From an uncultured Acidimicrobiia bacterium (GTDB taxonomy: Bacteria > Acidobacteriota > Terriglobia > Versatilivoradales > Versatilivoraceae), in contig CAWBAT010000009.1 in NCBI GenBank assembly GCA_963786955.1, positions 192,001 through 256,000 of the forward strand: a stretch of 64,000 nt of DNA. The letters run 5' to 3'. The notes under the pieces were generated by a model. That model ran no database searches, had not been told where the DNA came from, and saw only the letters and a list, made by a program, of their open reading frames with translations. Of the stretch, positions 37,966 through 63,129 are shown one piece after another (the stretch's first letter is position 1; every line of letters begins with the position of its first letter). The translations under genes were made by a program, and so were the position numbers.

Positions 37966-39135
37966 ATGATGATTACTGAAAACACTTTTCAAAAGTCTAT
38001 CGCGGTTCTGAAAGACCTGATCCAGATTAACTCTACAAATTCCACGCTCGTTCGTGGAGGAGTTGGAGAAAAGGAAATCGTACGGTATCTGAGTGAACTC
38101 TTCCTGCAGGAGGGAATTCACTCCGAACTTCAGAACATTGGCACGGATCGATTTAATTTGGTGGCCAGGGTTAGCGGGAAGAAAGGCGGCCCTAGAATCC
38201 TTCTCAATGGTCACCTCGACACCGTAGGGGTGGCAGGCATGCTAGCGCCTTTCGAAGCGAGAGAAATCGAGGGCAAGATCTATGGTCGAGGCTCGCAGGA
38301 TATGAAAGGGGGCCTCGCTGCGGGAGTAGCCACTCTGTTGGCTCTTTCCCAGAATCGGGACAGGTTTACTGGCGAAGTTGTATTGGCCGCCGTGGCCGAT
38401 GAAGAAGACCGGAGCATTGGAACGGAATATTTTCTGCGACACCAACCCCAAGAAAAACGTTTCGATTTTTGCATTGTCCTCGAACCCACCGACCTTAAAG
38501 TATGTACCGCGCACAAGGGTTTTGCCTGGCTCGAGATCACAGTCTACGGAAAGGCTGCCCACGGGAGCCGTCCCAACGAAGGCATTGATGCCATTCGGCA
38601 TATGGGACGGGTTCTTGAACAACTCAATCAGTTAGATAACCGATTGCAGTCCACTCCCCTTCACTCGTTGCTGGGCTCAGGATCCTTGCACACTTCTTTG
38701 ATCGAAGGAGGTTGCGAATGGAGCTCGTATCCGGATCGATGTGTCCTGAAGTATGAGCGACGGACAGTTCCTCCAGAAAATGAAGCGACTTTTCGAAATG
38801 AGCTCAATGTCATCCTTGAGGATCTAACGAAGTCCGTATCACTTTTTCGGGCAGAGAGTCAGCTGATCTTCTCCCGCGCTCCCTTAGAGCAAGACAGGAA
38901 ACACCCTTTTGTTTCTCGGTTCCATCTACAGGCGGTTCACAATTTTTCTGAGCTGGCGGACTGGGGAACAGTTTCTTTCTGGACAGATGCTGCATTAATC
39001 TCTGACGCCGGAATTCCCTCTGTCGTCTTCGGGCCCCGTGGCGCAGGACTTCATTCCCTTGAAGAGTATGTGCTCGCTTCCGACGTGGTAGCTTGTGCAA
39101 AGCTGCTCTACGATTTCATCCTCGCCCTGCCTTAA
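37966..39135 (+). CDS. ArgE/DapE family (M20) deacylase
   Basis: NGHLDTV, GRGSQDMKGG, DEE, AAHGS, GLHSLEE. Confidence 0.92.
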   Translation: MMITENTFQKSIAVLKDLIQINSTNSTLVRGGVGEKEIVRYLSELFLQEGIHSELQNIGTDRFNLVARVSGKKGGPRILLNGHLDTVGVAGMLAPFEAREIEGKIYGRGSQDMKGGLAAGVATLLALSQNRDRFTGEVVLAAVADEEDRSIGTEYFLRHQPQEKRFDFCIVLEPTDLKVCTAHKGFAWLEITVYGKAAHGSRPNEGIDAIRHMGRVLEQLNQLDNRLQSTPLHSLLGSGSLHTSLIEGGCEWSSYPDRCVLKYERRTVPPENEATFRNELNVILEDLTKSVSLFRAESQLIFSRAPLEQDRKHPFVSRFHLQAVHNFSELADWGTVSFWTDAALISDAGIPSVVFGPRGAGLHSLEEYVLASDVVACAKLLYDFILALP

Positions 39136-39419
39136 GGCGCTTTCCGATTTTCCGTGCCCGCCAGGGCCACAACGACCAGGGTCCAGGCCGGGAACAACTG
39201 CAGGGCCGGCACAGCTTCAACGGCCAGAGCCGACAAGAGCGGCCAGCGGAAGCCCAGCACAGCAAACAGCACCACGGCGGTGGCTGCGTCCAACAGCCAC
39301 TGTACCGGTGGTAACAGCACCACACCGAAACCCAGCGCGTCCGACAGCACCGCGGTCAATAGAGCCCAGCGCCAGCGGGGAAACTTCCAGGCCATCAGGA
39401 AATTATGGACTAGTTTCAT
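39132..39419 (-). CDS. Small membrane protein (paralog of 47818..48126)
   Basis: PPVQWLLDAATA...EAVPALQLFPAWTLVV matches PPVQWAADLATA...EAIPGLSVFPFWVLVV. Confidence 0.75.
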   Translation of the reverse strand: MKLVHNFLMAWKFPRWRWALLTAVLSDALGFGVVLLPPVQWLLDAATAVVLFAVLGFRWPLLSALAVEAVPALQLFPAWTLVVVALAGTENRKAP

Positions 39420-39447
39420 CGATTTGGTTTCACCCTTCGACGCCCAG

Positions 39448-39552
39448 CTACCGGGCTTTGGTAAGCAACATCCGGTCGGGAGTGTGCCTGTACGTCCATG
39501 GACAGCCCGAGTTCTTCCAGCCGTTCACCAGCCGCTGGCCCACGAAGACGCT
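39448..39552 (-). pseudogene. 3' scrap of a rhodanese gene
   Basis: NGWKNSGCPWTYRHTPDRMLLTKAR* vs DGWKNSGCPWTKKLTPDRMLLSKVQ* at 53351. Confidence 0.85.
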
Positions 39553-39661
39553 TGCAGTGGCAGCCAGGACGATGCTGGCATCACGGCGAGGGTTACCAAT
39601 ATACCATTGCCCACCAAACAGTTCCAAAACACTTCTGCATTTAGTTGAGCCATATTCAACT

Positions 39662-39958
39662 CTTTAGAAATTCCCCTCTTGGGAGGGGAAAGAAGGCTTT
39701 AGCCTTCAGGGGTGGGTCCGCCCGTCGGAACAACCCACCCCTGGCCTTCGGCCATCCCCCGAAGTTGTGAAAGAATTGCGTTCGGTGTCGCCCTTCGAGT
39801 GTCCCCCTTGGTTAAGGGGGACTCCAGGGGGTAAGGTAGGGCGGTCTCGCTGAGACCGCCGACTCCAGTTTTGGTGTGGCGGCGCGCACGGCGTGCGCGC
39901 CCTACCAGAGCGACCACCCCCTCGCCCCCTCGAAAGCAGATGAGTTTCTCTCACCACC
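39662..39958. repeat. Nested repeat pile: TCCCCTC...GAGGGG element, TGTGAAAGAA...TTTCTCTCACCA shell and GTAG REPIN
   Basis: ACCCACCCCTGGCCTTCGGCCATCCC is shared with about 54037 and 56472; GGTAGGGCG...CGCCCTACC at about 39835-39907. Confidence 0.75.
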
Positions 39959-39973
39959 AGCCGTTCGCCCAGA

Positions 39974-41023
39974 TCACGCCTCGGTGAACTGAAGAACGAC
40001 TTTGATGTCGTCTGCGGTTCGCTGCAGGGCCTTCATGAAATCTTGAGGCCGCTCACGTCTTGTCACGAGTCGCGCCAGCCAGGAGCGATCTGCGCGGGCC
40101 AGTGCTTCTCCGGCCTTATACCAGTGCCGCTTGTTTGCGTTGACGCTGCCGACGATGACGTTGTTCTGCAGCACTGCGCTGGCCGCAACATCGGCTATTG
40201 AAGCTGCATACCGGGCTCCGCCGCTGCCGACACCGGTGAGGCAAACGATGCCACCTGAGCCGATGGAGCGAATCGAGTCGGCAATGACCTGTCCGACGCC
40301 AGTACATTCGATGATGACATCCGGCTCGAATCCTATTCCCCCGACCGCACCGACGTGATAGGTTGCGCCGAGTGAGCGCACGAGTTCGGGCTTGGGCCCC
40401 GACTCGACCCGGTCCAGGACATGGACTTCCAACCCGTGTTGTCTTCCAACGAGAGCGGCCAGCAGGCCGATGGGCCCCGCTCCCGTCACCAGCGCGGTCC
40501 GGGGTTCCCAGAAGGCGCGCTGGCCCACGGCAACGACCTGCTCCCACGCTTTTGTCACCACTGTCGTAGGCTCAAGCAAGACACCGAGGAGACCGAGAGC
40601 TGGGTTGACCTTCATTGCGTACTCCGGTTCAATCCGCCAGCGCTCCGACATGAACCCATCGATTTGCTTGATGCCGCGCTCGGTGTACTGTCCGTTGCGG
40701 CACATGTCCCACTCCCCCACCGCGCAGTTCGGGCAGGGGACAGGGTCAGGACGCCGGACAATGCCCACGACCAGATCCCCCTTCTTCAGTCCGCCGGCCG
40801 GACCCGGATCCAGCACGCGGCCAAGAGATTCGTGGCCCAGCACAAGTCGCTTCTTGCCGGGAGGAGCCCAGCCGTATTTTCCCTCGACGATTTCGACATC
40901 AGTCCCGCAAACCCCAACGGCGATGGCTTCCACGAGCACTGATCCGTCCCGTAGCTCCGGTTCTGGGATATTTTCCAACCGGGCAGTTTCGGGTTGCTTC
41001 GGCTCTACTGTGATTGCCTGCAT
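39974..41023 (-). CDS. Zn-dependent glucose 1-dehydrogenase (MDR family)
   Basis: VGVCGTD, LGHESLG, CPNC...DMC, GAGPIG, GSVNAN. Confidence 0.9.
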   Translation of the reverse strand: MQAITVEPKQPETARLENIPEPELRDGSVLVEAIAVGVCGTDVEIVEGKYGWAPPGKKRLVLGHESLGRVLDPGPAGGLKKGDLVVGIVRRPDPVPCPNCAVGEWDMCRNGQYTERGIKQIDGFMSERWRIEPEYAMKVNPALGLLGVLLEPTTVVTKAWEQVVAVGQRAFWEPRTALVTGAGPIGLLAALVGRQHGLEVHVLDRVESGPKPELVRSLGATYHVGAVGGIGFEPDVIIECTGVGQVIADSIRSIGSGGIVCLTGVGSGGARYAASIADVAASAVLQNNVIVGSVNANKRHWYKAGEALARADRSWLARLVTRRERPQDFMKALQRTADDIKVVLQFTEA

Positions 41024-41082
41024 ATAGTCTCCTTAGAAAATCCCTCTTAATAGAGGCGGATGTCCGGCCCTGATGAACCATC

Positions 41083-41309
41083 CCGCTCCCTTCCGCGCCG
41101 ATTGGTTTTCACACAAAGCCACAAAGTACTCCATTCAACTGCTCCGTTCAGGATTCACAAAATCCCATCTTTCATCAAAGCCTCACCGAAGCCGGGACCC
41201 AACTCCTTATGGATCTGTATGGCACCATTGACGATTCCTTTGCCGATCTCGTTTTCCGTCATCTCTTCGTGCCTTTGTGTCTTTGTGTGAGTCTTTTTCC
41301 GAGTTCACT
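41083..41309 (-). pseudogene. Internally deleted tandem copy of the GxxExxY gene unit
   Basis: Near-identical to 41335-41820 but lacking 41451-41702; reads MTENEIGKGIVNGAIQIHKELGPG|FGEALMKDGIL*. Confidence 0.92.
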
Positions 41310-41390
41310 TCCTGATGCGCTGGGTGCCCTCCTGCCGCTCCCTTCCGCGCCGATTGGTTTTCACACAAAGGCACGAAGGCACAAAGTGCT

Positions 41391-41774
41391 CTATTCAACT
41401 GCTCCATTCAGGATCCGCGAAATCCCATCTTTCATCAAAGCCTCACCGAAGTTCAAAAGATATCCAAGTTTCATCCCGGTCAATTTGAGATAGGTCAAAA
41501 GCTGCTTCTTATGTGCTTTGCTCACCGCCTCAACCGACTTCAACTCGACGATCACTTTGCCTTCAACGATGAGGTCCGCCCGGAAACCTTCGTCGAAAGT
41601 AATCCCATGGTACGCAATCGCGATGGGGATTTGTCGTTCAACTTGCAAACCTAATTGTGCCAATTCGTGAGCGAGAATAGCTTCATAGACGCTCTCGAAA
41701 AGGCCGGGACCCAACTCCTTATGGATCTGTATGGCACCATTGACGATTCCTTTGCCGATCTCGTTTTCCGTCAT
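41391..41774 (-). CDS. GxxExxY protein (PD-(D/E)XK nuclease fold)
   Basis: LGPGLFESVYE, FRADLIVEGKVIVELKS, QLLTYL, GYLLNFG. Confidence 0.93.
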   Translation of the reverse strand: MTENEIGKGIVNGAIQIHKELGPGLFESVYEAILAHELAQLGLQVERQIPIAIAYHGITFDEGFRADLIVEGKVIVELKSVEAVSKAHKKQLLTYLKLTGMKLGYLLNFGEALMKDGISRILNGAVE

Positions 41775-41825
41775 CTCTTCGTGCCTTTGTGTCTCTGTGT
41801 GAGTCTTTTTCGGGCTCACTATTGG

Positions 41826-42101
41826 TCAGATCGCCAACGGCTTACAGCCATAGGCCCGAGCGAGCTCGTTGATGCCGGTGCGGAGAGTGGCCCAGAGTCT
41901 GGCCACTTAAGATCCGTAATTCCCACGCACAACCGCCTGATTGATCTTTTGCCCATCGTCGATCACCTGCTCCACCTGGGCTTTCGTTGAAATCCTCCCG
42001 GATGGTTTCCAGCTGACGCGCGCTCAAGTAAGGTCCCATTTTTTCCAGGAAGCTTTTTTCGTTCGGGCTTCTCCTAGCCGGGTGTGTTCGGCGCTTTTCA
42101 T
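41826..42101 (-). pseudogene. Chimeric remnant: 5' scrap of an MGH1/GH63-like glucosidase joined to the 3' scrap of a helical hypothetical protein
   Basis: MKSAEHTRLGEARTKKASWKK/MGPYLSARQLETIREDF resembles W.KWGPYLSERQWGTVREDY; then TKAQVEQVIDDGQKINQAVVRGNYGS*VARLWATLRTGINELARAYGCKPLAI*. Confidence 0.7.
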
Positions 42102-42156
42102 TTATGGAATTCTTCCTTTCGCCAATCGCTTGGTTCATTTGGCTTGTTTGGCACCT

Positions 42157-43245
42157 CTATTGCGCCGGTATGGTGATCACCGGCAGTTTCTCGGGGCTAC
42201 CGGTTTCTGCCAGCGTGAAAAAGAACATGACGGCCGTGAGTGCGCGTTTGGTTTGCCAGTCGCCGTTGTCAACCCAGAACCAGTGGTCGCGGTAATGCAC
42301 GGCAACATACGCGGCCGCCGGCTTCTTCATGCCACTGTATATACGCCCGTTTTGCTGGCTGCCCGCTGCGGTGGGGACGTTTTCAAAGGCAGGCCACGCG
42401 CTGTGATCCTTCTGATGGGCCTCGGGCACGTCCACGCGGCTGGCGAAGGCCTGCATGATTTGCATCATAGAACGGCTGTTTACGCTGAGTTCATCGTCCG
42501 CCCCGCGAACCGGTGAATAGGTGAGCACGAACTTCTGCTGATCCGGAAGTAATTTGAGCAAGCGCCGGACCTCCGCCCCCTTTTCGGCGATGTCAGGGGG
42601 AACGTCGTCGCGCCGGAAGAACACCACGCCGGTTGAGCCTTTGACCTTGTCCACCTCGATGCGCATCCCGAACGCCCCGGCCGCCTGCGCTTCACGCAGC
42701 AACTCCAGCGCGCGGATAAACTCCGGGTCCGCCTCTCGAACCACACCGCCTACCGTCGAGCGGTTGCGCACACCGTTGAGCGACTCGACCGTTAGGCCCA
42801 GGATGAAGTCCGCCGCATAACCGGACTGAAGCAGGGTAAAAATTTTCTTCGGATCAATTGGCGCGATCAGCCCGTGCAAGAACTTTTCCCCCGTCATCGG
42901 CACGTAGGTGATGGTGGGACGTTCGGTGTAGACGGCTGATGCTCCCGCCCCCAGAAAGTTGCCTTGGGGCACCGTTTCAGAAGAGACAGCGCCGTTCACG
43001 TTGACTCCCGTTACCATGGAATAGCCACTGACGACAGATGACACGTCCACGAAAACCGGCAAGTCCAGGTAGCGCAACTTGATGATGTTGAGGAGGGTCT
43101 GCTGTTTCCACGAGTCAGCGATGGCCGTGCTGTAGTCGAAACGGTCCACGGCAACGGTTTTGGGGCCGAGGTGTACGCAACCGGTCAAAGCCACCGCGCC
43201 AACGAGTGCGACGGCAAAAAAGTTTTGTCTGCGGGTAGTTTTCAT
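42157..43245 (-). CDS. Hypothetical lipoprotein
   Basis: Lipobox LTGC; motifs LLNIIKLRYLDLPVF, PTITYVP, YRDHWFWV. Confidence 0.8.
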   Translation of the reverse strand: MKTTRRQNFFAVALVGAVALTGCVHLGPKTVAVDRFDYSTAIADSWKQQTLLNIIKLRYLDLPVFVDVSSVVSGYSMVTGVNVNGAVSSETVPQGNFLGAGASAVYTERPTITYVPMTGEKFLHGLIAPIDPKKIFTLLQSGYAADFILGLTVESLNGVRNRSTVGGVVREADPEFIRALELLREAQAAGAFGMRIEVDKVKGSTGVVFFRRDDVPPDIAEKGAEVRRLLKLLPDQQKFVLTYSPVRGADDELSVNSRSMMQIMQAFASRVDVPEAHQKDHSAWPAFENVPTAAGSQQNGRIYSGMKKPAAAYVAVHYRDHWFWVDNGDWQTKRALTAVMFFFTLAETGSPEKLPVITIPAQ

Positions 43246-43289
43246 AGCCGTTTTAGACGCTCCCATAACCGCGTGAAGGTTCAGTCGAC

Positions 43290-43492
43290 TCCAATGGACC
43301 TATGTCCGGCGGTTTTCCGGCAGTCGGTTTCGTTGCAGTGTTGTCCCGCTTGTTCATGCCTGTATTTTCAGGTGGGCTTCGGCCTGATTGAGATTACTGC
43401 CCATAGATTTCAGTTTTGGCCGCTCGGTCCCCAGATGGCCAATGCCCCACCACGAGCACCTAGAACGGGAAGACGGAGAGACCGGGGATCAC
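43290..43492 (-). pseudogene. Collapsed copy of 46375-47930 (small membrane gene 3' end fused to the DUF2254 3' end and its spacer)
   Basis: IPGLSVFPF*VLVVGALAIWG; GCGGTTTTCCGGCAGT...TTTCAGGTGG.CTTCGGCC is shared with 46391-46468. Confidence 0.8.
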
Positions 43493-43651
43493 ATCTATGA
43501 AGCGGTACATAAAATTATCCTGAGGTGCACTGCGTTTCGTCGCGCACCCCAGGATTCAATCATTTTCCATATCCATTGCACCTCGTGATCCAAAACACCT
43601 GATCACCTGGCAGCCTCACCTGCGCAGGGTGACAAGCAAGGGCGTGAATGT

Positions 43652-44575
43652 CTATAGTCCGGCTACGGCTTTGTTCTGAAGTGTCCGGACCCGAACACGA
43701 CGATTCTCGGCCTCACTCTCTGCTGTCTTGTCCTTTCCTATCTGGCGACTCTCGCCCATCGCGGCCGGCGCCAACATGTTAGTCAGCGGAATACGACCCT
43801 GCTGTAATAGAATGTTGGTGACATTGTTGGCGCGTTCTTCGCTCAGCTTCTGGTTTAGGGAAACACTTCCGGATGCTGAAGCATACCCTTTGACTTCGAT
43901 CATGTAGCCGTTGAAGGTCTTGGCCTTTTCAGCCAAGGCCACCAGTTGAGGATTGTACTTGGGGTCCACGTTTACCTTGCCGTTCCCGAAATACACGGTC
44001 ACTTCGTCTAGGATGTAGTAATCGTCGAGCTGGCCGAATCGTGCGGTCGCCGCGGCAACCGCCGCTTTATTCGCGGCGATCTTCTTCTCCTGTTCGGTCA
44101 ACGCCGCCTGCTGTTCTTTTAGCGCTGCGTTCTGTGCCGCAAGGGCGGCATTCTGCTTTTCTAACTCCTCTTTATTTTGCTGGGCCTGCCGAGCCGTTTC
44201 GGCCACTCCAGCCTGAATGGCCTGGGCTTGTTCCAAATCGTTGCCCTTGAACCTTACTTTCGTCGCCACCAGCTGATTTTGCGCGTCGAAAGTCCCCTCT
44301 ACCTGAATGGGAAGCCCCGGAATGAGGGCCGCCATTGACATTTCCTTTTTGCGGGCTTTGAGTACGCCCTCTACCTGGGCAACATCAGTGCTGTCTGTCA
44401 GTAAGACAATGACCTTCGGCGAATCCGCCGTCTGTAGAATAATCTTCGCGCCACTTCGCCCTTTGATCACTCCTTCGATCTTGGTTTGGGCCAAGACCAT
44501 TGTGCTTGACAGTGCGACGAACATGAGCGTCAGGATCGTGATGGACATGATTTTAAGCGACTTGATACGAGTCAT
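43652..44575 (-). CDS. OmpA family protein with N-terminal DUF5666-like and coiled-coil regions
   Basis: Signal peptide, GYASASG...NQKLSEERA, ENRRV. Confidence 0.9.
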   Translation of the reverse strand: MTRIKSLKIMSITILTLMFVALSSTMVLAQTKIEGVIKGRSGAKIILQTADSPKVIVLLTDSTDVAQVEGVLKARKKEMSMAALIPGLPIQVEGTFDAQNQLVATKVRFKGNDLEQAQAIQAGVAETARQAQQNKEELEKQNAALAAQNAALKEQQAALTEQEKKIAANKAAVAAATARFGQLDDYYILDEVTVYFGNGKVNVDPKYNPQLVALAEKAKTFNGYMIEVKGYASASGSVSLNQKLSEERANNVTNILLQQGRIPLTNMLAPAAMGESRQIGKDKTAESEAENRRVRVRTLQNKAVAGL

Positions 44576-44635
44576 AATGTTTCTCCTTTTATAATTTTGA
44601 ACGCAATCACAATGAAGAGCTGCTGCTGCAGCTCT

Positions 44636-45022
44636 TCACCAAGAAAAGTGCCAGCAAGACAGGATGGCGCCACGACGGCCGTACACCGACTCAACAAAAA
44701 CTTCACTTACCAGCGCGACCAACACGGCGATAGCAGCCTGCGTGGCGAGGGCCAGACCCAGCGGCCACTGTGCCTCGCTGGCCTCCCCGGGTTCCGCACT
44801 GGCAAACTGCTCGCGGTGCGTTTTTTGCGAGAACAACATACCCAACCAGCAAGCGACGATGAGCAGTACCGCCAGACCAAGGCTTAACTTCTGTGTGAAC
44901 ACCGCCACCACCGTACTAGACTGATGCACATCCAAACCAATATACTTCGGTTCCATAGGGCGTTTCCTCTTTAGTGGGCTTAGAGTCTCTGAGCAACTTC
45001 AAATTACCACGAGAAGGGGAAG
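44636..45022 (-). pseudogene. IS110 transposase 5' remnant plus left end, fused to a Ca2+/H+ exchanger fragment
   Basis: MEPKYIGLDVHQSSTVVAV (IS110 first Asp motif), then LSLGLAVLLIV...KTHREQFASAE...LVALVSEVFVESV (CAX-like). Confidence 0.75.
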
Positions 45023-45069
45023 AAGGTTTCAAGTGCTTTTTCCCAAAGCCATAATCTCTCGACTGCAAA

Positions 45070-46167: not shown

Positions 46168-46261
46168 CTGTTTCTCCTCTTAGAAAGCATGCGAGACACC
46201 CTATGGGAACACTCCAGATAAATAAAAGTCGCACAGCCTTCCTAGTTCGAGCCCTGCCAGG

Positions 46262-46373: not shown

Positions 46374-46450
46374 TCCACGCACCTCTGTCCCGCGGTTTTC
46401 CGGCAGTTGCTTTCACTGTGGTGTTCTCCTGCACTTTCGTGCCCGTCCTT

Positions 46451-48202: not shown

Positions 48203-48207
48203 GGCTC

Positions 48208-55097: not shown

Positions 55098-55128
55098 ATC
55101 CATCCTCCTCTTCCTCTCTGGTTTATCA

Positions 55129-56310: not shown

Positions 56311-56382
56311 TCGTATACTCCTTTCAGGCTCGTTTAAGCTGGCGTGCTGTTGTACCGTTAATTCATCCTATTTAGGCTTTTT

Positions 56383-56523
56383 CTAGAAGTCCCCTCCACC
56401 GGAGGGGTGGACGTCCGCCGCGGCGGACGGACGGGGTGGGTCCCATCGACCGAAAGCTTTCCCTACTCCAAACCCACCCCTGGCCTCCGGCCATCCCCTC
56501 CAAAGGAGGGGAATCATTTTCAT
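56383..56523. repeat. CCCCTCC..GGAGGGG / TTTTCAT element
   Basis: Same architecture as 53951-54087. Confidence 0.85.
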
Positions 56524-57263
56524 CATGAGTCTCCTTTGGAGCCCGGGTTCGCCGAAGTATCCCGGCGAGCCCGCTGCCGGCGCGACCGCATCTCGGCTAG
56601 GCTTAACTTCCGCTCGATTTTTGCAAACAGGATCACCGCCCATAACACCGGAGCAAGGGCCGCACCCACCGCGCCCTGGAAAAAGGTGATGGCCTTGCAA
56701 TCCCCACTGAAGCGGCCGAGTAAGGCATCCACGGTGTTGCCGCTCAGGTTGGTGAAAGTGATGAAGCGCACGTAGGCGAGGATCTCCTTCACCTGCGCAT
56801 CGCTGTAGTACTTGCGCAGGTTCTCAATCGATTCCGGGGCGAACTGGTCGAGTTGCTCCGCGTAGTGCTGAGCAAACAGGATCGCCGCGGCCTCGGCCGG
56901 ATTAATTGCCTCCAGCGACTCGGTCTGATGGCGGAGGATCTGGTTGACTTCCTCAAGCGGTACCCCGTGGGCCATTGCCCAGTGCATATGACCCCACTCG
57001 CAGAAGCGGCAGTCGTTGATCGAAGTGACGCCGAGAAAGATCTTCTCGCGCAGCGCAAAAGAGAGTTTCGGCCTGACCAGCGCCCGGGCAAGAACGGGGG
57101 ACGAGGCCACGAAGTTGGCGACCGTCTTGAAAAAGTTGTCAGGAGTCAGCGTACGCTTTGGCTGGCTGTGCTGCTTCGGTGGCGCGCTTGTGCCATTCTT
57201 CGAGTGCGGATCATCGGCAGGCTCGGCGCGCCCGCCGCCGGTCACGTGCTTAGACTCTGTCAT
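56523..57263 (-). CDS. Carboxymuconolactone decarboxylase / AhpD-like protein
   Basis: REKIFLGVTSINDCRFCEWGH (CxxCxxxH); SD GGAGG before MTESK. Confidence 0.85.
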   Translation of the reverse strand: MTESKHVTGGGRAEPADDPHSKNGTSAPPKQHSQPKRTLTPDNFFKTVANFVASSPVLARALVRPKLSFALREKIFLGVTSINDCRFCEWGHMHWAMAHGVPLEEVNQILRHQTESLEAINPAEAAAILFAQHYAEQLDQFAPESIENLRKYYSDAQVKEILAYVRFITFTNLSGNTVDALLGRFSGDCKAITFFQGAVGAALAPVLWAVILFAKIERKLSLAEMRSRRQRARRDTSANPGSKGDS

Positions 57264-57348
57264 CTCTATACCTCCTTGCTTGTCGTTCGCGACCTGGTTC
57301 ACCTCCACGCACATCGGCCGCGTGGTCGGCTTCACCTATCGGTTCCGA

Positions 57349-57684
57349 CTATTTGCTTTCGAGGATCTTTAATATCGTTTGGTAGCCGCCGCCGTTGAAG
57401 GCTTTGAAACCCGCGGCTTCCAGTACTTGTTTTGCCATTCCGGCCCTGCCGCCCGTGCCGCAATAAAGTACGATGTTTCGGTCACGAGGCAGTTCGTCCA
57501 TATGACGCTTTAACGTAAAGAGCGAAATATTCGTCGCGCCCGGAGCAATGCCTCTTCTCGCTTCGAGCTTTGTTCGGACATCAACCAAAAATGCTCCTTT
57601 TTTGAGCAGTTTCGCTACTTCTTCCGGCGGCAGCTTTGTGTCCGCTAAAGCGTCATGTTTTTCTTTTAATTTTCCTAACAACAT
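57349..57684 (-). CDS. Rhodanese-like protein
   Basis: VDVRT, YCGTGGRA, NGGGY. Confidence 0.9.
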   Translation of the reverse strand: MLLGKLKEKHDALADTKLPPEEVAKLLKKGAFLVDVRTKLEARRGIAPGATNISLFTLKRHMDELPRDRNIVLYCGTGGRAGMAKQVLEAAGFKAFNGGGYQTILKILESK

Positions 57685-57809
57685 TTAACTCCTTATTTTA
57701 GTATGCGTGCGCTTTCACTGCCAGCAGTGTTGTCAACGGGGCCGTTGCCTTCGACCCCGTATCCGTCCTTGCTGGTCGTGCAGATGTGCTCGCCATAAGA
57801 GGCGACCTT

Positions 57810-58493
57810 CTAAGGAATGTAGTTCGCACTTGTATCCGAACCATAACCGCAGCCCTGGTAGGTGCAGTGCAGGTCGTCGCGGATGATGGCCGCCCATCCG
57901 CCCGCTTTGCTGGTGTCGAGCACGAGATCCTTTTCGAGGACCTTGGTCTCGAACTTCCAGCCTTGCGGCAGGGTCTTCAGCTTGCCGCCTACCGTGTTCA
58001 CATTGTCGGGCGTCAGGCTCGGATCGACCGCCTTGGTGTATTCCTGCATAACCCAAACTGCGCCGTCCGGCGCGCGCAGCAGGCACACGGATTTACCCGC
58101 CTTGAAGGTCCAGACCGAGCTGCGCCGGATCAGCGAGGGCACGTAGGCGTTCTGCATCTGCGAGATCATCTCCGCCCCGGTCATATCCCCGCCCCAGCGC
58201 AACTCGACGCCGTGAAAGTTCTGCGTTTCGCCGACGAGGAACTTGATTTCGTCCATCAGCCAGAAGCGTCCGCTGTTGACCGCGCACATATCCACTTCGA
58301 GTTCGCCCGCCAGTTTCTTGGCATCGATCTTTTTGTAGGCTTCGGGGTCGACGGGAATCGATGCCGCCGTATAGACGTGGGCTCTCTGTGATTTCCCGGT
58401 GCCGATAAAGGCCCCCATCCCATGGAAGGGGAGGCCGCGGGTGTTGTTGAAGCTCATCCAGCTTAGGGATTCCATACCTGTTTTAAGTTTCAT
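57810..58493 (-). CDS. Conserved hypothetical protein
   Basis: 227 aa with coding-like GC3; NSGRFWLMD, WVMQEY, LPQGWKF. Confidence 0.75.
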   Translation of the reverse strand: MKLKTGMESLSWMSFNNTRGLPFHGMGAFIGTGKSQRAHVYTAASIPVDPEAYKKIDAKKLAGELEVDMCAVNSGRFWLMDEIKFLVGETQNFHGVELRWGGDMTGAEMISQMQNAYVPSLIRRSSVWTFKAGKSVCLLRAPDGAVWVMQEYTKAVDPSLTPDNVNTVGGKLKTLPQGWKFETKVLEKDLVLDTSKAGGWAAIIRDDLHCTYQGCGYGSDTSANYIP

Positions 58494-58609
58494 TGGTTTT
58501 TTCCTTTCGTTTTATAGTTGGCTTCTTGCTTCTATGAGAGTCGTGACGTTGGGGCGCGGGAGCACCGCGCCCCGATGTTTGATTTACGGAATGTAAGGCG
58601 CGTCACCAC

Positions 58610-59008
58610 TTACTTCTTCATCATCTTCGCGAGATGCTCCTGGATTATCTTGGCTTGCGCAGCCAACCCTCCACCGGGGCTGAACTGGATGATCTCGGCC
58701 CCTTCCTTCGACTTGAAGTTGTGCGGAGCTGGCCAGAAGCACGCTTCCCCAGCGCGGCAAACCTCAATGGTCCCGTCAAGGTAGATGACCTCCACCGTGC
58801 CCTTCAAAACGTAAGCCCAGTGTTCAACCCCGCACAGATCATGCGCTAGTCCCTTCCCAGCCAGAATTTGTGTGAAATCAGTACCCGGGGCAAAGACGTG
58901 GTAGGCGCACTGCATGCCGCCCCAGTTCTCCTCCCAAATTTTGAGGCCTGGGGTGTTCTGGGTGACGATGTCGTCTACTGGGTGCATATCCGTCAATTTC
59001 TTCCTCAT
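58610..59008 (-). CDS. Cupin domain protein
   Basis: CGVEHWAYVLKG, GEACFWPAPH. Confidence 0.85.
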   Translation of the reverse strand: MRKKLTDMHPVDDIVTQNTPGLKIWEENWGGMQCAYHVFAPGTDFTQILAGKGLAHDLCGVEHWAYVLKGTVEVIYLDGTIEVCRAGEACFWPAPHNFKSKEGAEIIQFSPGGGLAAQAKIIQEHLAKMMKK

Positions 59009-59039
59009 ATGTTTTCTCCGTTTTGTTTTTGTTTTCGTG

Positions 59040-59080
59040 CCTCACCGGACCGGCGGTGATGGCGATTTGTTCAAAGCCAG
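59040..59080. repeat. About 42-bp intergenic hairpin repeat, copy 3
   Basis: CCTCACCGGACCGGCGGTGATGGCGATTTGTTCAAAG. Confidence 0.9.
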
Positions 59081-59125
59081 ACCCGGTCGCCTGGACAAAC
59101 CTAGTTGTGCACTGACGGCCATCGG

Positions 59126-59247
59126 TTACGGAAAGTAGTTGGCGCTCGTGTAAGTCATTCTTGAAAATACCCTCCTTTCTCCTGAGCTTTCGCCCGGCCG
59201 AGGAGTTGCTCAACACCACGAGTTAGCATCTCCAGAATTGCATCCAT
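59126..59247 (-). pseudogene. Two paralog scraps: 5' end of a 52692..53153 homolog and 3' end of a 57810..58493 homolog
   Basis: MDAILEMLTRGVEQLLGR (59247-59190, with SD) vs MDTIFEMLASRGEHLLGR; TSANYFP* (59149-59126) vs TSANYIP*. Confidence 0.75.
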
Positions 59248-59306
59248 GGTTCACTCCTTCCGATGATTGAGATGTCAGAGTTTGGCTGTGCGTTCTTCTC
59301 TTTCCG

Positions 59307-60728
59307 TCATTGAACCTCTTCGAAGACCGCCGGCACTTTGCCCTGCCGGACCGCGCGTTCGAGGGCTGCATGGTCGCTCTCGTTCTGATCGGCGTAGGCC
59401 AGCGAAAAAGACGCGATGGCCCGGTCGAAGGCGTTGCTTTTACCCATGTACCCGCTGAGCAGAGCGGAACTCCCGGACCGGGCGTGGGAAATGGCGAGGG
59501 CCCTTCCGCACCAGGTGGCATAGAGATCCATCTCGGAGAGACCAAACGTCTCCACGCGGATACTGATCTTGATGTCCCTCAACTGGCGGATGAAGAGATG
59601 GTGATTGACGAGCTGGCCCACGCTCCACCCGAGGAACATGTCGCTGGCGGGTTGCATGAGCCGGTAACCGTTCACAACTCGCTCGCCATGGTTCGAAAAG
59701 ACACTCGCACCGGCATAGGGCTCGAGCACCGAGGCACGCGCCTCCTTCACCTGGAGGAAGAGCGGGTCGTCCTGGCCGGCCATGAAGAGCATGACCCAGC
59801 AGTAGGTCCCGACGCTGCCGATCCCCACCACCTTGATGGCGGCGTCTCGCAGCTCGTAGCGGTCCAGCACAGATTGATAGGCTGGGAGGAGATTGGCACG
59901 GTACGCGGCGAGCATATCGAACAATGCCTGCTGAATCTGACCCGGAGGATAGGCCTCATGGTGGAAGATGGTGGGGAGCTGATCCTTGATGACGGGCATT
60001 TCTCCCTTGTGCTCCGCCAGCTTCGGGAAGATATCCTCGGCAATGCTCTTCGCCCGTTCCTTCTGCAGGCGCTTAATGCCCCGCTTGCGAAGCTCGGGGT
60101 CCTTGATGCCCGCCACCAACTCGTCTACCCCCATCGATTGGTACCACAGTTCGAGGGTCTTCATCTGGCTGAACTCGGCCATGGCTTCGCGGTAGGTGCG
60201 GACGCAGGTCATGACCACGTCCTTGGCCTGGCCATCCTTCAGGCCGTTGTCCCGGCAGGCCACGACGAAGCTAGCGGCGAGACGCTTGACGTCCCACTCC
60301 CAGGGAGCCGGCAAGGTCTCGTCAAGGTCGTTGATGGAGAAAATGACTCTCCGCTCCGGAGTGGCAAATCCGCCGAAATTACACAGGTGTGCATCTCCGC
60401 AGCACTGGACGCGAACACCCGAGGCCGGGGTGGACGCGAGGTCCGAGGCCATGGTGAGGGCCGCCCCGCGGTAAAACGTGAACGCAGAGCGGACCATGCG
60501 CCCGTGGCGGAGGGGGAGAAGGTCAGGTAGACGTCCCTTCTCCGACTCCAGAACCAGCTCGACCGGGTCCCGCCGGTCAGATGGAGCCTTCCAAACGGCG
60601 TGGGCACTGCGGGGGCAGGTCGCCCGTAAGGCCTTGCCCGCGGCATATTGCTCCGCCCGCAGCCCAGACTGGACAGGAATCTGGGCTCGCTTATCACCTG
60701 GTCGGACTGGCTTTTTCGAAGATGCCAT
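59307..60728 (-). CDS. DUF2252 domain protein
   Basis: FTFYRGAA, CGDAHLCNFG, KVVGIGSVG, LQVKEA, RQLRDIK. Confidence 0.93.
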   Translation of the reverse strand: MASSKKPVRPGDKRAQIPVQSGLRAEQYAAGKALRATCPRSAHAVWKAPSDRRDPVELVLESEKGRLPDLLPLRHGRMVRSAFTFYRGAALTMASDLASTPASGVRVQCCGDAHLCNFGGFATPERRVIFSINDLDETLPAPWEWDVKRLAASFVVACRDNGLKDGQAKDVVMTCVRTYREAMAEFSQMKTLELWYQSMGVDELVAGIKDPELRKRGIKRLQKERAKSIAEDIFPKLAEHKGEMPVIKDQLPTIFHHEAYPPGQIQQALFDMLAAYRANLLPAYQSVLDRYELRDAAIKVVGIGSVGTYCWVMLFMAGQDDPLFLQVKEARASVLEPYAGASVFSNHGERVVNGYRLMQPASDMFLGWSVGQLVNHHLFIRQLRDIKISIRVETFGLSEMDLYATWCGRALAISHARSGSSALLSGYMGKSNAFDRAIASFSLAYADQNESDHAALERAVRQGKVPAVFEEVQ

Positions 60729-60734
60729 TGTATT

Positions 60735-60871
60735 CTCCTCTGAAAATCCCCCCTTGAGGGGGGCAGCAGGCGTAGTAAGCCTGCGGGGGGTGCCGCTTTC
60801 GGTGGGTGCTGTCTTGTCGACAATGTGGACATCCCCCTGCCCCCTTCAAAGGGGGAATCGGTTATTTTCAT
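60735..60871. repeat. CTCCTCTGAAAA...TTTTCAT element with CCCCCTT..GGGGG palindromes
   Basis: Inner motif GGGG.CAGCAG...CTGCGGGGG is shared with about 23553-23597. Confidence 0.8.
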
Positions 60872-60988
60872 CCAATGTGGCGCCGCAACGCGGCATGAAA
60901 AACTCCTTGGTCGATTCTCCATCGGACCTGCGTGATGGTGGCTTCTTGCACATCAGGCCCTGCTGCGAGCTGTTGGTTGCGTCACCAT

Positions 60989-62731
60989 TCATTTCAATTC
61001 AGCCAGAGAGCGCATCGCGCGTGACAGCATGCCGCCGGAGATGTTTTTGGCTTTGAACCCGTTCTGCAACAGGATGCGCGTCGCGTAGTAGGCGCGCTGG
61101 GCGGAACGGCAGATGACGTGGATCTCGCGGTCGCGGGGAAGCTCGCCCAGGCGCGCGCGGAGCTGCGGCAGCGGGATGTTGACCGCGCCCGGCACGCTCT
61201 CCACGACCAGCTCCACCGGCTCGCGCACGTCGAGCAGGAACGCGCCGTCCAGCGAATCCCAATGACTGAGCGGCATGTCGCCGCGCAGAACATCCGCGGC
61301 CACCATCCCGGCGAAGTTGACCGGATCCTTGGCGCTGCCGAACTGCGGCGCGTAGCACAGCTCGGCTTCTTCCAGATCGTAGATCGTCGCGCCCATCTGG
61401 ATGGCCATGGCCAGGGCGCTGATCCGCTTGTCCACCGCCGGGCCGTCCTCGCCCAGCGCCTGCGCGCCGAGAACTGTCCGTTGGATTTCCGGAAGATGAA
61501 CTTCAACCCGAGCATCTTGGCCCCCGGGTAATAGCCGGCGTGCGAGTTGGGGAACAGGTAGATCTTCTCGTAGTCCGTGTCGCCGAGTTTCTTGCAGCGT
61601 TTTCTCGCTGACGCCGGTCCAGGCGGCGGCGCCGCCGAACAGCCCGATGATCGCGGTGCCCTGGGTGCCGCGGTAACGGGAGTCGCGCCCGCAGATCACG
61701 TCGGCCGCAATCCGCCCCTGCCGGTTCGCCGGCCCGGCCAGCGCAACCAGGCTCCACTGGCCGGTCCCGAAGTCCTTGACCTCGATGGCATCGCCGACGG
61801 CGAAGATATCCGGGTCGCTCGTGCGCATGTGTTCGTCAACGCGGATGCCGCCGCGTTCGCCGATCGTCGAGGCCGGCCGACTTGGCCAGCGTCGTGTCCG
61901 GCCGCACGCCGATCGCGAGGATCACGATGTCGGCCGGATACGTCTTGCCGGACTTCGTCTGCACCTCGATCGCGCCGCCGTCCAACTGCTTGAAGCCGGC
62001 CACCCCGTCGTTGAGCGCCAGCCTGGACGCCATGCTTCTTCATGTGGCCCTGGACGAGGCACGCGATCTCCGGGTCCAGCGGGGCCAGGACGTGGTCGAG
62101 GCTTCTGGATGAGGGTCACGTCGAACCCGAGGTGGACGAGGTTCTCCGCCGTCTCGAGGCCGATGAAGCCGCCGCCGACGACCACCGCGCGGCGTCACCG
62201 GCTTGACCAACTGGATCCCCGAGTAGTTGAACATCCCCGCGAGGAACGTGGTGCCTCTTCTCGATCCACTCGCGGATCGTCCTCGCGTCCGGCACGGTCC
62301 GCACATGGAAAATCCCCGGCAGATCGATGCCCGGCAGCGGCGGATGGACCGAGGGCGCGCCCGGCGACAGCACGAGCTTGTCGTAGGACTCGGTCGTGAC
62401 CTCGCCGGTCTTGACATTGCGCAGGTCCACGGTCTTCTTCTTCGGTCAGATCGCGATCGCCTCGCAGTTCGTCCGCACATCGATCGCGAACATGGTCGCG
62501 AAACAGCTGCTCGTTCGCGACCAGGAGGCTCGATTCCTTCTCGATCACGCCGCCGACATGGTAAGGCAGCCCGCAGTTCGCGTACGAGACGTACGGGCCC
62601 GCGCTCCACCATGAGGATTTCGGCTTTCTCGTCCAACCGGCGCAGACGCGCCGCACACGACGCACCGCCGGCCACTCCGCCAACGATAATGACTTTCTTT
62701 CTGCGCTCTTGCCTTTGGGTTCCATAATCAT
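60989..62731 (-). pseudogene. CoA-disulfide reductase with C-terminal rhodanese; many frameshifts (probable assembly errors)
   Basis: GGVAGGASCAARLRR, SYANCGLPY, GGGFIGLE, AVGDA, ALAGPANRQGR, YAPQFGSAKDPVN, ICRSAQR, spread over all three frames. Confidence 0.88.
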
Positions 62732-62757
62732 TGCCCCTTTTTCATATCTTTGTCATG

Positions 62758-63087
62758 TTATATATGCATTGCGGAGCCGCGCAATTTACGCAGGAACTCA
62801 ATACCGGAATTACCCGTCAGGGAGCCAATCATGACCCGGGGTTCTTCGTCGCACAGATCCATGGCGGCGAGTACACGCTGGAATTCCTCCGATCGAATAT
62901 GACGGCGAAAAGCCTTCTCTGAATCCCACATTTCCTGGTAGTCAATGCAACTATCGCCCCCCACGCACCTTCCCACCCGACAGCTACGACACCCCGGCTT
63001 CACCTCGATTTGCCCGACTACTGAAAATAGCAGTTGGGCGGCAACATCCAACTTTTCTGGCGAGTAATGCATGATGATCGAACACAT
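62758..63087 (-). CDS. ABM (antibiotic biosynthesis monooxygenase)-like protein
   Basis: KPGCRSC, EMWDSEKAFRRHIRSEEF, MDLCDEEP. Confidence 0.8.
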   Translation of the reverse strand: MCSIIMHYSPEKLDVAAQLLFSVVGQIEVKPGCRSCRVGRCVGGDSCIDYQEMWDSEKAFRRHIRSEEFQRVLAAMDLCDEEPRVMIGSLTGNSGIEFLRKLRGSAMHI

Positions 63088-63129
63088 CTTTAAGTTTAGA
63101 GATTCGTTCGTACCCATGTCCGTCTCTAG

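What the first reader, a model, noticed from the sequence alone, without database searches (positions are those of the whole stretch)
39132..63100. Island whose spacers are built from 5' and 3' gene-end scraps: a cassette-shuffling operon with no visible recombinase
Seen: many spacers in this one-strand island translate into a short gene end. Several are paralogs of intact genes in the same island: rhodanese 3' (39448), small-membrane plus DUF2254 3' (43290), 52692-type 5' with its RBS (59247) and 57810-type 3' (59126). Others match families recalled from memory: GH63 5' (42101), HAD 5' (46373), and SulP 5' and 3'. Termini survive while gene bodies are lost. Inference: genes are exchanged at high rate within a conserved sigma54-driven operon scaffold, by recombination at or near gene ends, giving integron-like turnover without attC sites.
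Basis: partly seen in the sequence, partly recalled or inferred. Interest (0 to 1): 0.72.

Follow-up and report, generated by a model that had tools for sequence, protein, structure and literature searches.

The report
Gene-displacement scars in an acquired island
The gaps between genes in this horizontally acquired sulfur-stress gene island really do hold the leftover heads and tails of older genes, but they look like slowly eroding scars of ordinary gene replacement and deletion, not the work of an integron-like cassette machine.

Summary
Nine of 19 spacers in window 39132-63222 carry gene-end scraps, all co-oriented with the operon. The 57810-type 3' end is only a 7-of-8-residue match.

The other spacers are different things. 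Several are genome-wide MITE/REP-like repeats. The 929-bp 'spacer' is the N-terminal two thirds of a CoA-disulfide-reductase-rhodanese gene, broken by eight single-base insertions that are probably assembly errors.

The region is a 27.3-kb island of raised G+C, inserted between two convergent genes that lie 94 bp apart in a same-genus genome. No recombinase was found in the flanks or in 23 related metagenomic loci.

In 80 related loci the same families recur in shuffled orders, with further terminal scraps. The intact SulP gene sits between the 5' and 3' remains of an older SulP. In relatives the same scars are longer, up to about 100 residues, so the original breakpoints lay well inside the gene and the scars eroded afterwards.

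Best reading: xenologous displacement, insertion and duplication by illegitimate recombination, then deletional erosion. The integron-like model is not supported.

In passing: a conserved two-hairpin leader upstream of the SsuA/NMT1-like gene, with no Rfam match.

The parts
39126..64000 (-). Window part of a 27.3-kb acquired island. It runs on to window coordinate 66410, outside the window. All called genes within the window part lie on the minus strand, and most 500-bp bins have higher G+C than the genome.
   Evidence: In the same-genus genome G002 the flanking M20 and M48 peptidase genes are 94 bp apart. Island bins run 0.49-0.68 G+C against contig means of 0.511-0.522.
39442..39558 (-). 3' scrap of a rhodanese gene (residues 137-172 of 172), lying 22 nt upstream of the small membrane gene 39132-39419.
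   Evidence: It is closer to the L015 homologue (79% aa over 33 residues) than to the window's own copy (61%).
39640..39973 (.). Host-genome dispersed MITE/REP-like repeat. Not a gene scrap.
   Evidence: Spacer 39420-39973 had 103 blastn hits across the genome, with copies of about 176 nt at 84-93% identity.
41083..41309 (-). Tandem, internally deleted copy of the GxxExxY/PDDEXK_3 gene. The 5' part (residues 4-44) is joined to the 3' part (residues 124-142) plus downstream DNA.
   Evidence: DNA identity 97% and 87% to 41703-41820 and 41335-41451. The deletion junction has 3-4 nt of microhomology.
41923..42101 (-). 5' scrap of a GH63/MGH1-like glycosidase gene (residues about 7-64 of about 930), with one frame change.
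43298..43500 (-). Remains of an older small-membrane-gene plus DUF2254 pair. The 3' half of the small gene is joined to the last codons of DUF2254 and its downstream DNA, just upstream of the 369-aa gene.
   Evidence: In L015, DUF2254 is directly followed by the 369-aa gene's homologue.
46242..46373 (-). 5' scrap of a HAD-like hydrolase gene. It has its own ATG and a 43-codon open frame.
48158..48221 (-). Orphan copy of the NMT1-gene leader. Hairpin 2 is intact and hairpin 1 is degenerate.
   Evidence: 56.1 bits.
50481..50543 (-). Leader of the SsuA/NMT1-like gene 49204-50448.
   Evidence: 64.7 bits.
50598..50684 (-). 3' scrap of an older SulP gene: the last 29 residues of its STAS domain plus the stop codon. 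It lies directly after the stop of the intact SulP gene.
   Evidence: 79-93% identical over 28-29 aa to fragments in L033, L034, L018, L025 and L058. Pfam STAS positions 48-103 in 3 of 3 of those fragments tested.
50705..52474 (-). Intact SulP-STAS transporter gene ('SulP-B'), nested between the two ends of the displaced SulP.
   Evidence: Pfam. Relatives at 54-95% aa identity in 80 metagenome loci.
52529..52687 (-). 5' scrap of the older SulP gene ('SulP-A'). A 52-codon open frame starts 4 nt after the stop of gene 52692-53153.
   Evidence: L033's longer version is Pfam Sulfate_transp positions 1-68, E = 2.8e-16.
59037..59099 (-). Complete copy of the NMT1-type leader, now in front of the cupin gene 58610-59008.
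   Evidence: 73.8 bits.
59126..59158 (-). Possible 3' scrap of a 57810-type gene (10 codons plus stop). Weak.
   Evidence: Only TSANYFP-stop against TSANYIP-stop. No BLAST hit at E <= 1.
59155..59270 (-). 5' scrap of a 52692-type membrane-protein gene: RBS, ATG at 59247 and a 30-codon frame.
60989..62730 (-). Full-length CoA-disulfide-reductase-rhodanese gene. It reads as a 279-aa ORF plus a 929-bp 'spacer' because of 8 extra single bases and 1 missing base.
   Evidence: Pyr_redox_2 pieces in four frames. 87% DNA identity over 1711 nt to L015 and L061. Indel positions.
63130..63145 (-). Sigma-54 -24/-12-like site (TGGCAT-N5-ATGCA) just upstream of the likely start of the ABM gene.
   Evidence: It is one of 33 matches, with 31 expected by chance, so only its position speaks for it.
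63223..63566 (.). Second host-genome dispersed repeat, lying between the activator gene and the ABM gene.
   Evidence: 38 blastn hits, with copies of about 150 nt at 87-93% identity.
63594..64000 (-). 3' part of the sigma-54 enhancer-binding-protein gene. The AAA+ ORF runs to window coordinate 64766. A separate 178-aa N-terminal ORF overlaps it, which suggests another frame error.

Best explanation
ORIGIN. The region is a horizontally acquired, one-strand sulfur/persulfide-stress gene island. It carries CoA-disulfide-reductase-rhodanese, rhodaneses, SulP, an SsuA/NMT1-like protein, a nitroreductase-ferredoxin, DUF2254, DUF3300/DUF2950 and DUF2252, among others. It sits at a hotspot between two convergent housekeeping genes.

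HOW THE SCRAPS AROSE. The spacer scraps are scars of repeated replacement, insertion and duplication of homologous gene modules within this island family. Incoming or duplicated co-linear modules were joined by illegitimate recombination, possibly homology-facilitated, with breakpoints inside resident genes. Every such event leaves a terminal fragment of the broken gene in the operon's orientation.

WHY THEY ARE SHORT. Deletion bias then erodes each fragment from its broken side. The outer terminus survives longest because it abuts sequence under selection: the neighbour's stop or start, an RBS, a leader or a terminator. The neutral target for further deletion also shrinks as the scar shrinks. 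Many scars are old and came in with the island; they were not made in this genome.

SHOWN:
- the island insertion;
- the scraps, their terminal position and their co-orientation;
- the nested arrangement SulP-A 5' / SulP-B / SulP-A 3';
- the erosion series in relatives;
- shuffled gene order among close relatives;
- the absence of recombinase genes.

INFERRED:
- the recombination mechanism (illegitimate or homology-facilitated);
- the role of selection on neighbouring signals.
For: ISLAND. M20 and M48 are 94 bp apart in same-genus G002 and 27,285 bp apart here. G004 carries about 10 kb of other cargo at the same site, plus a duplicated M20 3' end covering residues 328-386. Most bins have raised G+C. 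The DUF2950 gene has no match above 48% identity in 40 relatives.

SCRAPS. All 10 scored scraps are terminal and co-oriented.

NESTING AND EROSION.
- A SulP-A 5' scrap lies upstream of SulP-B in 8 of 80 related loci (E from 2.6e-13 to 0.21). Lengths run from 15 to 51 aligned residues, and L033 has a 123-aa ORF. The extreme 5' end is always kept.
- STAS-end fragments of about 91-97 aa follow SulP-B in L033, L034 and L018; L058 has a similar fragment that I read but did not measure. The window keeps only 29 aa.
- Scrap DNA identity between the window and L033 is 82.8%. Third-codon identity in the adjacent SulP-B is 87.2%, so the scrap drifts about neutrally.

MORE TERMINAL SCRAPS IN RELATIVES, all internal to their contigs:
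- CoADR-rhodanese residues 245-272 of 279 (L051);
- DUF2254 367-421 of 441 (L032);
- GDH 289-348 of 349 (L015);
- NMT1 350-404 of 414 (L054);
- nitroreductase-ferredoxin 1-47 of 278 (L021);
- the 369-aa gene 27-73 of 369 (L057).

SHUFFLING. Gene maps of the loci of 6 kb or more, from the 80 fetched. In 16 of 58 loci with enough upstream DNA, unk153 lies within 23 nt of SulP; in others the upstream neighbour is SBF, an enhancer-binding protein, an outer-membrane protein gene or a rhodanese.

ORDINARY JUNCTIONS. 3-4 nt of microhomology at the PDDEXK_3 deletion.

NO MOBILITY GENES. None in the window flanks and none among 132 other ORFs of 23 related loci.

NOT ASSEMBLY CHIMERAS. The arrangement scar / SulP-B / scar / leader recurs in independently assembled metagenome contigs.

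GENOME-WIDE TREND. A crude survey shows a similar terminal excess: 158 5'-terminal and 80 3'-terminal of 489 spacer hits, against 62 and 33 expected.
Against: - No donor sequence is known for any junction, so homology-facilitated illegitimate recombination is untested. Microhomology was examined at two deletion junctions only: one showed it, and the other has 17 unassignable bases.
- Remaining fractions of the parents are all small (0.01-0.52, median about 0.13). That also fits a real preference for breakpoints near gene ends, for those scraps that have no longer version in relatives.
- Several 5' scraps keep an RBS, a start codon and open frames of 30-52 codons. Selection for translation is therefore not excluded.
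- The rate of rearrangement relative to sequence divergence was not compared with control operons.
- The control for enrichment used crude ORF-based gene calls and own-genome paralogues only.
Confidence: 0.72

Rival explanations
1. A dedicated, integron-like cassette-exchange process swaps genes by recombination at or next to gene ends inside a conserved sigma-54 operon scaffold. It would use an unseen recombinase or a host function.
For: - Scraps are terminal and co-oriented.
- Gene order varies among close relatives.
- Contigs in public runs join genes at positions that coincide with gene boundaries: 47776|50709 and 53154|61025.
- A multicopy GxxExxY PD-(D/E)XK gene with a tandem partial copy lies in the island. 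One lies 152 nt upstream of SulP in L044.
Against: - Longer versions of the same scars show breakpoints about 100 residues inside the gene.
- No integrase or transposase was found in the flanks or among 132 ORFs of 23 relatives.
- No repeated boundary element exists. The only repeated hairpin belongs to the NMT1 leader: 13 of 17 motif hits in relatives precede an NMT1-like gene.
- PDDEXK_3 appears in 1 of the 80 related loci at E <= 1e-8.
- Joints at gene boundaries are expected anyway when only coding DNA stays alignable at 90% likeness.
- The regulator is not conserved.
Confidence: 0.05
2. The scraps are kept by selection because they carry expression signals for the downstream gene, or encode small proteins or upstream ORFs. 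This would be promoter, leader or RBS capture, translational coupling, or protection from Rho. Deletional erosion alone would not explain their survival.
For: - The NMT1-type leader sits intact in front of the cupin gene.
- The 15-residue tail of an SBF transporter gene, with an ATGA stop/start overlap, stays attached upstream of SulP-B in loci that lack the SBF body.
- 5' scraps keep an RBS, a start codon and 30-52-codon frames. The unk153 scrap's stop overlaps the next ATG.
- The pair SulP-A 5' scrap plus SulP-B travels together behind different upstream neighbours.
- There is a precedent: the small protein MntS derives from the signal-peptide remnant of SitA (bioRxiv 10.1101/2023.06.02.543501; abstract and passages read).
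Against: - The SulP-A 5' scrap diverges at least as fast as third codon positions next door (82.8% against 87.2%).
- Its length and stop position vary freely among loci.
- Several scraps carry frame changes.
- No expression data were examined.
Confidence: 0.15
3. The scraps and junctions are artefacts of a metagenome assembly: chimeric joins or mis-polished sequence.
For: - The CoADR gene carries 8 extra single bases and 1 missing base relative to four related loci. Independent contigs lack one base at the same places.
- The activator gene is split into two overlapping ORFs.
- Earlier notes of this scan on this genome (e1-756771, e1-756772) judged other frameshifts to be assembly errors.
Against: - Diverged partial duplicates (74-97% identity) cannot be produced by mis-assembly.
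- The same scar arrangements occur in independently assembled contigs from other samples.
- Most long genes of the island are intact.
Confidence: 0.03

Closest known systems
Mosaic operons / xenologous gene displacement in situ (Omelchenko et al. 2003, Genome Biology). Recalled.
   Same: A gene inside an operon is replaced at the same position by a homologue of different descent. Here an intact SulP gene sits exactly where an older SulP was. A second small-membrane-gene plus DUF2254 pair stands beside the remains of the first.
   Different: Here both ends of the displaced gene are still readable, and a series of relatives shows their erosion. So the physical footprint of the event is visible, not just phylogenetic incongruence.
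Integrons (IntI integrase, attI, attC-bounded promoterless cassettes). Defining features recalled.
   Same: A one-strand array with variable gene content, downstream of a single regulatory region.
   Different: There is no integrase and no attC-like element at gene boundaries. Junctions fall inside genes and leave scraps. Cassettes are not discrete units.
Homology-facilitated illegitimate recombination. I read only the start of the abstract of PMC3240628, in the listing.
   Same: One end of incoming linear DNA is anchored by homology, and the other is joined illegitimately. This would leave a terminal piece of the resident gene beside an intact incoming copy, in the same orientation, as seen here.
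   Different: Not demonstrated here. Donors are unknown, and only one junction shows microhomology.
Deletional decay of pseudogenes into spacer DNA (Mira, Ochman and Moran 2001; Rickettsia spacers, Andersson and Andersson).
   Same: Non-functional DNA shrinks by deletions until only unrecognisable spacers are left.
   Different: The decay happens inside an apparently working operon of a free-living soil or sediment bacterium, not in a reduced genome. It is bounded on both sides by genes under selection.
Small proteins born from gene remnants: MntS from the SitA signal peptide (bioRxiv 10.1101/2023.06.02.543501; abstract and three passages read).
   Same: A 5' gene remnant with its own start survives next to related transport genes.
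   Different: No evidence of function or constraint for the scraps here.

Membership tests
Integron | An IntI-type tyrosine recombinase gene next to the array | tested here: not met
   Pfam found no Phage_integrase or other recombinase in the island genes, in about 17 kb to the left or in about 19 kb to the right. The nearest integrase fragment is about 40 kb away (L008). None was found among 132 ORFs of 23 related loci.
Integron | An attC-like imperfect palindrome at the 3' boundary of each cassette | tested here: not met
   Island self-comparison gave 14 repeat pairs, none at regular gene boundaries. The one repeated hairpin has 3 copies and is the 5' leader of NMT1-like genes in relatives. 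No dedicated attC model was run.
Genomic island at an insertion hotspot | Present between genes that are adjacent in a close relative, with deviant composition | tested here: met
   A 94-bp gap in G002 against 27,285 bp here. Other cargo sits at the same site in G004. G+C is 0.49-0.68 against 0.51-0.52.
Genomic island at an insertion hotspot | Mobility genes, a tRNA target or flanking direct repeats | tested here: not met
   No tRNA in the window. No integrase or transposase. No clear direct repeats at the two junctions.
Mosaic operon / in-situ xenologous displacement | A resident gene replaced at its own position by a homologue of separate descent | tested here: met
   Intact SulP-B lies between the SulP-A 5' piece (Sulfate_transp positions 1-68 in L033) and the SulP-A 3' piece (STAS positions 48-103). 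No phylogenetic tree of the two SulP types was built.
Homology-facilitated illegitimate recombination product | A homologous anchor on one side and an illegitimate joint with microhomology on the other | not testable with these tools
   No donor sequences are known. Only a later deletion junction could be read (3-4 nt of microhomology).
MITE/REP-type dispersed repeat | Many near-identical non-coding copies across the genome | tested here: met
   103 and 38 blastn hits for the spacers holding 39640-39973 and 63223-63566. These parts of the spacers are not gene scraps.
Sigma-54-dependent operon | An enhancer-binding protein plus a -24/-12 promoter upstream of the first gene | tested here: inconclusive
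   Sigma54_activat AAA+ ORF, E = 1.8e-69. One site with 2 mismatches at 63145-63130, among 33 matches with 31 expected by chance. The activator gene is split into two ORFs.

The most novel reading that the evidence does not exclude
This family of sulfur-stress islands undergoes 'module-in-module' replacement at a rate far above its sequence divergence. In such an event a complete incoming gene, or coupled gene pair, lands inside its resident homologue. The process would be directional and would preserve orientation. One candidate is transformation-driven, homology-facilitated illegitimate recombination among co-resident wetland and sediment bacteria; another is help from the multicopy GxxExxY nuclease genes. 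The retained 5' ends and leaders would act as captured expression modules. That would make the scars a readable record of how operons exchange parts without mobile-element machinery.
Probability: 0.12. Interest if true: 0.65.

Novelty: new member of a known kind. Interest (0 to 1): 0.4.

Why it matters
How genes are swapped inside operons ('displacement in situ') is usually inferred from trees. Here the physical scars are legible.
- An intact transporter gene is nested between both ends of the gene it displaced.
- A graded series of the same scars in related metagenomic loci shows how such remnants erode into anonymous spacer.

Two practical warnings follow:
- Terminal position of a scrap is the default outcome of any single breakpoint, so it is not evidence for a site-specific mechanism.
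- Long 'spacers' in long-read metagenome bins can be intact genes broken by insertion errors.

The conserved two-hairpin leader of the SsuA/NMT1-like gene may be an undescribed regulatory RNA worth its own study.

Tried and rejected
- Pfam on 93 minus-strand spacer translations found only the CoADR pieces and the PDDEXK_3 5' end. It is too insensitive for scraps of 20-50 residues.
- BLAST against own-genome paralogues missed both SulP scraps and the 57810-type 3' end.
- The search for related loci in genome contigs with DUF2950 gave only 3 distant Acidobacteriota loci at 39-50% identity. No orthologous island was found in 40 relatives.
- A genome-wide scrap survey with crude ORF-based gene calls is noisy. 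Wrong-strand ORFs mask island genes, so I use it only as a trend.
- Read laying gave only short contigs at 90-95% likeness from many organisms. No record spans the stretch, so depth and holes say nothing. I used only the single-base differences and a few low-depth joints.
- I tested the 35-nt hairpin as a possible boundary or recombination site and rejected it.
- Searching the sigma-54 promoter consensus gave no more matches than chance.
- The covariance model of the leader found no members beyond its training set, apart from one duplicate, in 83 sources. It gave one weak hit in 150 other genomes of the phylum.
- Literature on GxxExxY/PDDEXK_3 gave nothing on mobility or cassette exchange: 5 papers hold a term and 4 were listed. 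I read one passage, which was irrelevant.
- The Rfam hits V_AS7 (36.5 bits against 90 needed) and c-di-GMP-I-GGC (24.1 against 59) fall far below the gathering scores. I take them as chance.

Full report
**1. What the region is**

All likely genes between 39132 and 63222 lie on the minus strand. Pfam and NCBIfam name the following:
- a small membrane protein;
- a Zn-dehydrogenase;
- a GxxExxY/PDDEXK_3 protein;
- an OmpA-like protein;
- an AI-2E transporter;
- DUF2254;
- a ferredoxin-nitroreductase;
- an SsuA/NMT1-like protein;
- a SulP-STAS transporter;
- two rhodaneses;
- DUF2950 and DUF3300;
- a CMD-family protein;
- a cupin;
- DUF2252;
- the C-terminal part of a CoA-disulfide reductase fused to rhodanese;
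- an ABM protein.

A sigma-54 enhancer-binding protein lies upstream.

The genome's contigs are 51.1-52.2% G+C. Bins of the island run 0.49-0.68.

In the same-genus genome G002, the M20 peptidase gene left of the island and the M48 peptidase gene right of it are convergent neighbours 94 bp apart. Here 27,285 bp separate them, from window 39126 to 66410, the last 2.4 kb being outside the window. A same-family genome, G004, has about 10 kb of unrelated cargo at the same site and a duplicated M20 3' end. So this is an acquired island at a hotspot.

No tRNA, integrase or transposase lies within about 15 kb on either side. The flanks are housekeeping genes. Forty relatives hold no orthologous island; the best DUF2950 match is 48% identical.

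**2. The observation**

I defined 19 spacers. I compared their six-frame translations and DNA with the whole genome, with Pfam, and with 80 related metagenome loci.

Nine spacers hold gene-end scraps or orphan leaders:
- a rhodanese 3' end;
- an internally deleted tandem copy of the PDDEXK_3 gene;
- a GH63 5' end;
- the remains of a second small-membrane-gene plus DUF2254 pair;
- a HAD-like 5' end;
- SulP 5' and 3' ends, on either side of the intact SulP gene;
- a 52692-type 5' end with its RBS;
- two orphan copies of the leader of the NMT1-like gene.

The 57810-type 3' end is only a 7-of-8-residue match plus the stop codon. It has no BLAST support.

The remaining spacers are other things:
- Four spacers carry dispersed host-genome repeats, with 103, 38, 14 and 4 blastn hits. 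The ORF at 53921-54190 looks like such repeat hairpins and not a gene.
- The 929-bp gap at 61829-62757 is the N-terminal two thirds of the CoADR gene, read in four frames. It aligns at 87% identity over 1711 nt to intact homologues.
- Seven spacers hold nothing recognisable.

The window's CoADR gene has eight extra single bases and one missing base relative to four related loci. Independent contigs from public runs lack one base at the same places. A bias of eight insertions to one deletion fits assembly error better than natural decay. Earlier notes of this scan on this genome reached the same view for other genes. Against that, neighbouring genes of equal G+C are intact, so a real pseudogene is not excluded.

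**3. Is it more than chance?**

With own-genome evidence only, 5 of 19 island spacers hold a scrap. In the native flanks 2 of 49 spacers do, and both of those are IS or integrase debris (Fisher p = 0.016). The control used crude gene calls.

All ten scored scraps touch or nearly touch a terminus of the parent. The combined p against uniform placement is 7e-9. All ten are on the operon strand (p = 0.002).

**4. Related loci**

The SulP protein found 80 metagenome loci at 54-95% identity. Mapping the island's proteins on them shows the same roughly 15 families in many orders:
- One group (SulP 80-87% identical) mostly has CoADR-rhodanese, then unk153, then SulP 5-23 nt further on (14 nt in seven of them). 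This holds for 16 of 58 loci with enough upstream DNA; L067 and L068 look identical.
- The closest group (89-95%) mostly has an SBF transporter gene upstream instead.
- L015, from a 340-kb contig, has DUF2254 directly followed by the 369-aa gene. That suggests the window's block HAD-scrap / AI-2E / 106-aa gene / OmpA was inserted there beside the old DUF2254 remains. This is an inference.

These loci carry their own terminal scraps, listed in the For line. None of 132 other ORFs in 23 of these loci is a recombinase or transposase.

**5. The decisive case: SulP**

Upstream of the intact gene (SulP-B), the window has a 52-codon frame beginning MSTLRRYLPIL. Downstream it has the last 29 residues of a STAS domain.
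- In L033 the upstream piece is a 123-aa ORF that Pfam scores as Sulfate_transp positions 1-68 (E = 2.8e-16).
- The downstream pieces in L033, L034 and L018 are 91-97 aa and score as STAS positions 48-103.
- Eight loci carry the upstream scar at lengths from 15 to 51 aligned residues. All keep the start of the gene.

So a complete SulP-B, in some lineages together with an SBF gene whose 15-residue tail still overlaps its start codon, replaced the body of an older SulP-A. The breakpoints lay about 100 residues from each end, and the scars have since eroded inward-out.

The scar diverges about as fast as third codon positions next door (82.8% against 87.2%). So it drifts neutrally and was inherited with the island.

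**6. Mechanism**

Any event with one breakpoint inside a gene leaves a terminal fragment. Co-orientation is expected if the incoming DNA is a co-linear homologous module anchored by homology on one side.

Later deletions shorten the fragment only from its free side. One such deletion junction shows 3-4 nt of microhomology. The other side abuts a stop or start codon, an RBS, a leader or a terminator of a working neighbour.

This accounts for the terminal bias, the short lengths, the orientation and the absence of recombinases. Homology-facilitated illegitimate recombination is a named mechanism of this kind (start of the abstract of PMC3240628, seen in the listing), but it is not shown here.

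A contribution from selection on captured expression signals is possible. The NMT1-type leader now precedes the cupin gene, and several 5' scraps keep an RBS and open frames. A gene remnant turned small protein is on record.

**7. Comparison and verdict**

The defining features of integrons are not met. The closest known kind is the mosaic operon with xenologous displacement in situ, combined with ordinary deletional decay. Other follow-ups in this scan filed similar remnants as ordinary.

What is unusual here is how legible the case is, and the apparent speed of reshuffling relative to sequence divergence. I did not calibrate that speed against control operons.

Noticed in passing
window 50481-50543, 59037-59099, 48158-48221 (minus strand); L015:1789-1852, L033:2798-2862, L034:2169-2231 and 8 more loci: A conserved leader of about 64 nt lies 25-35 nt upstream of SsuA/NMT1-like genes. 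It has two hairpins whose loops are reverse complements of each other (GACCGG / CCGGUC). In L021 both loops change together (GUCAGG / CCUGAC). On 13 sequences, 88.8% of cells pair, 7 pairs change on both sides, and 0 of 500 shuffles reach the observed value. Of 17 motif hits in relatives, 13 precede an NMT1-like gene. There is no Rfam match at E <= 1. The model found it in 1 of 150 other genomes of the phylum, weakly. It is a candidate new cis-regulatory RNA.
   Followed up: partly
window 60989-62730 and window coordinates 63594-65290 (L010:594-2287): The CoADR-rhodanese gene carries 8 single-base insertions and 1 deletion relative to relatives. The sigma-54 activator is split into an AAA+ ORF and an overlapping N-terminal ORF. 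These are likely long-read assembly errors. Other genes of this genome also look split: DUF2950 and DUF3300 on C8, DUF2252 on C6, and ATP-synthase alpha/beta pieces in L006.
   Followed up: partly
G000:C6:985001-1052000 (L004-L006): A second long array, mostly on one strand, holds overlapping 'stress' families. These are DUF2252 (84% identical to the island's copy), an unk153-like gene, GH63, two PDDEXK_3 genes, DUF3300/DUF2950, two SulP genes, carbonic anhydrases, bestrophin-like proteins, phosphoketolase and PPK2. An inverted DUF2252 5' fragment lies beside the DUF2252 gene at about C6:992220-992382.
   Followed up: partly
window 41391-41819 and at least 15 other places in the genome: The GxxExxY/PDDEXK_3 gene family gives tblastn hits at 15 further places in this genome, at 28-70% identity. 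The island copy has a tandem, internally deleted duplicate whose homology starts exactly at the start codon. One copy lies 152 nt upstream of SulP in L044. Whether these small nuclease genes are selfish or mobile is open. The three-term literature search found nothing on this.
   Followed up: partly
L012:2587-2763 (G004): At the same M20/M48 hotspot in a same-family genome, a second copy of the last 59 residues of the M20 gene (69% identical) lies about 700 bp downstream of the intact gene. This is the pattern left by elements that integrate into the 3' end of a gene and bring a replacement end. The 10 kb of cargo there was not annotated.
   Followed up: no
window coordinates 66188-66262 against 65140-65214 (outside the window, G000:C9): A 75-nt copy (85% identical) of part of the activator's N-terminal ORF lies near the island's right edge. 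It is separated from that gene by a plus-strand 193-aa ORF without a Pfam match. It is another likely 5'-region scrap.
   Followed up: no
window 53265-53290, 53888-53905, 54059-54075, 56494-56512: Short G+C-rich hairpins of the form TCCCCTCC-N3-4-GGAGGGGA followed by T-rich runs recur after several genes. Some lie within about 130-nt repeats that are also present on contig C4. They may be terminators carried on a small repeat family.
   Followed up: no
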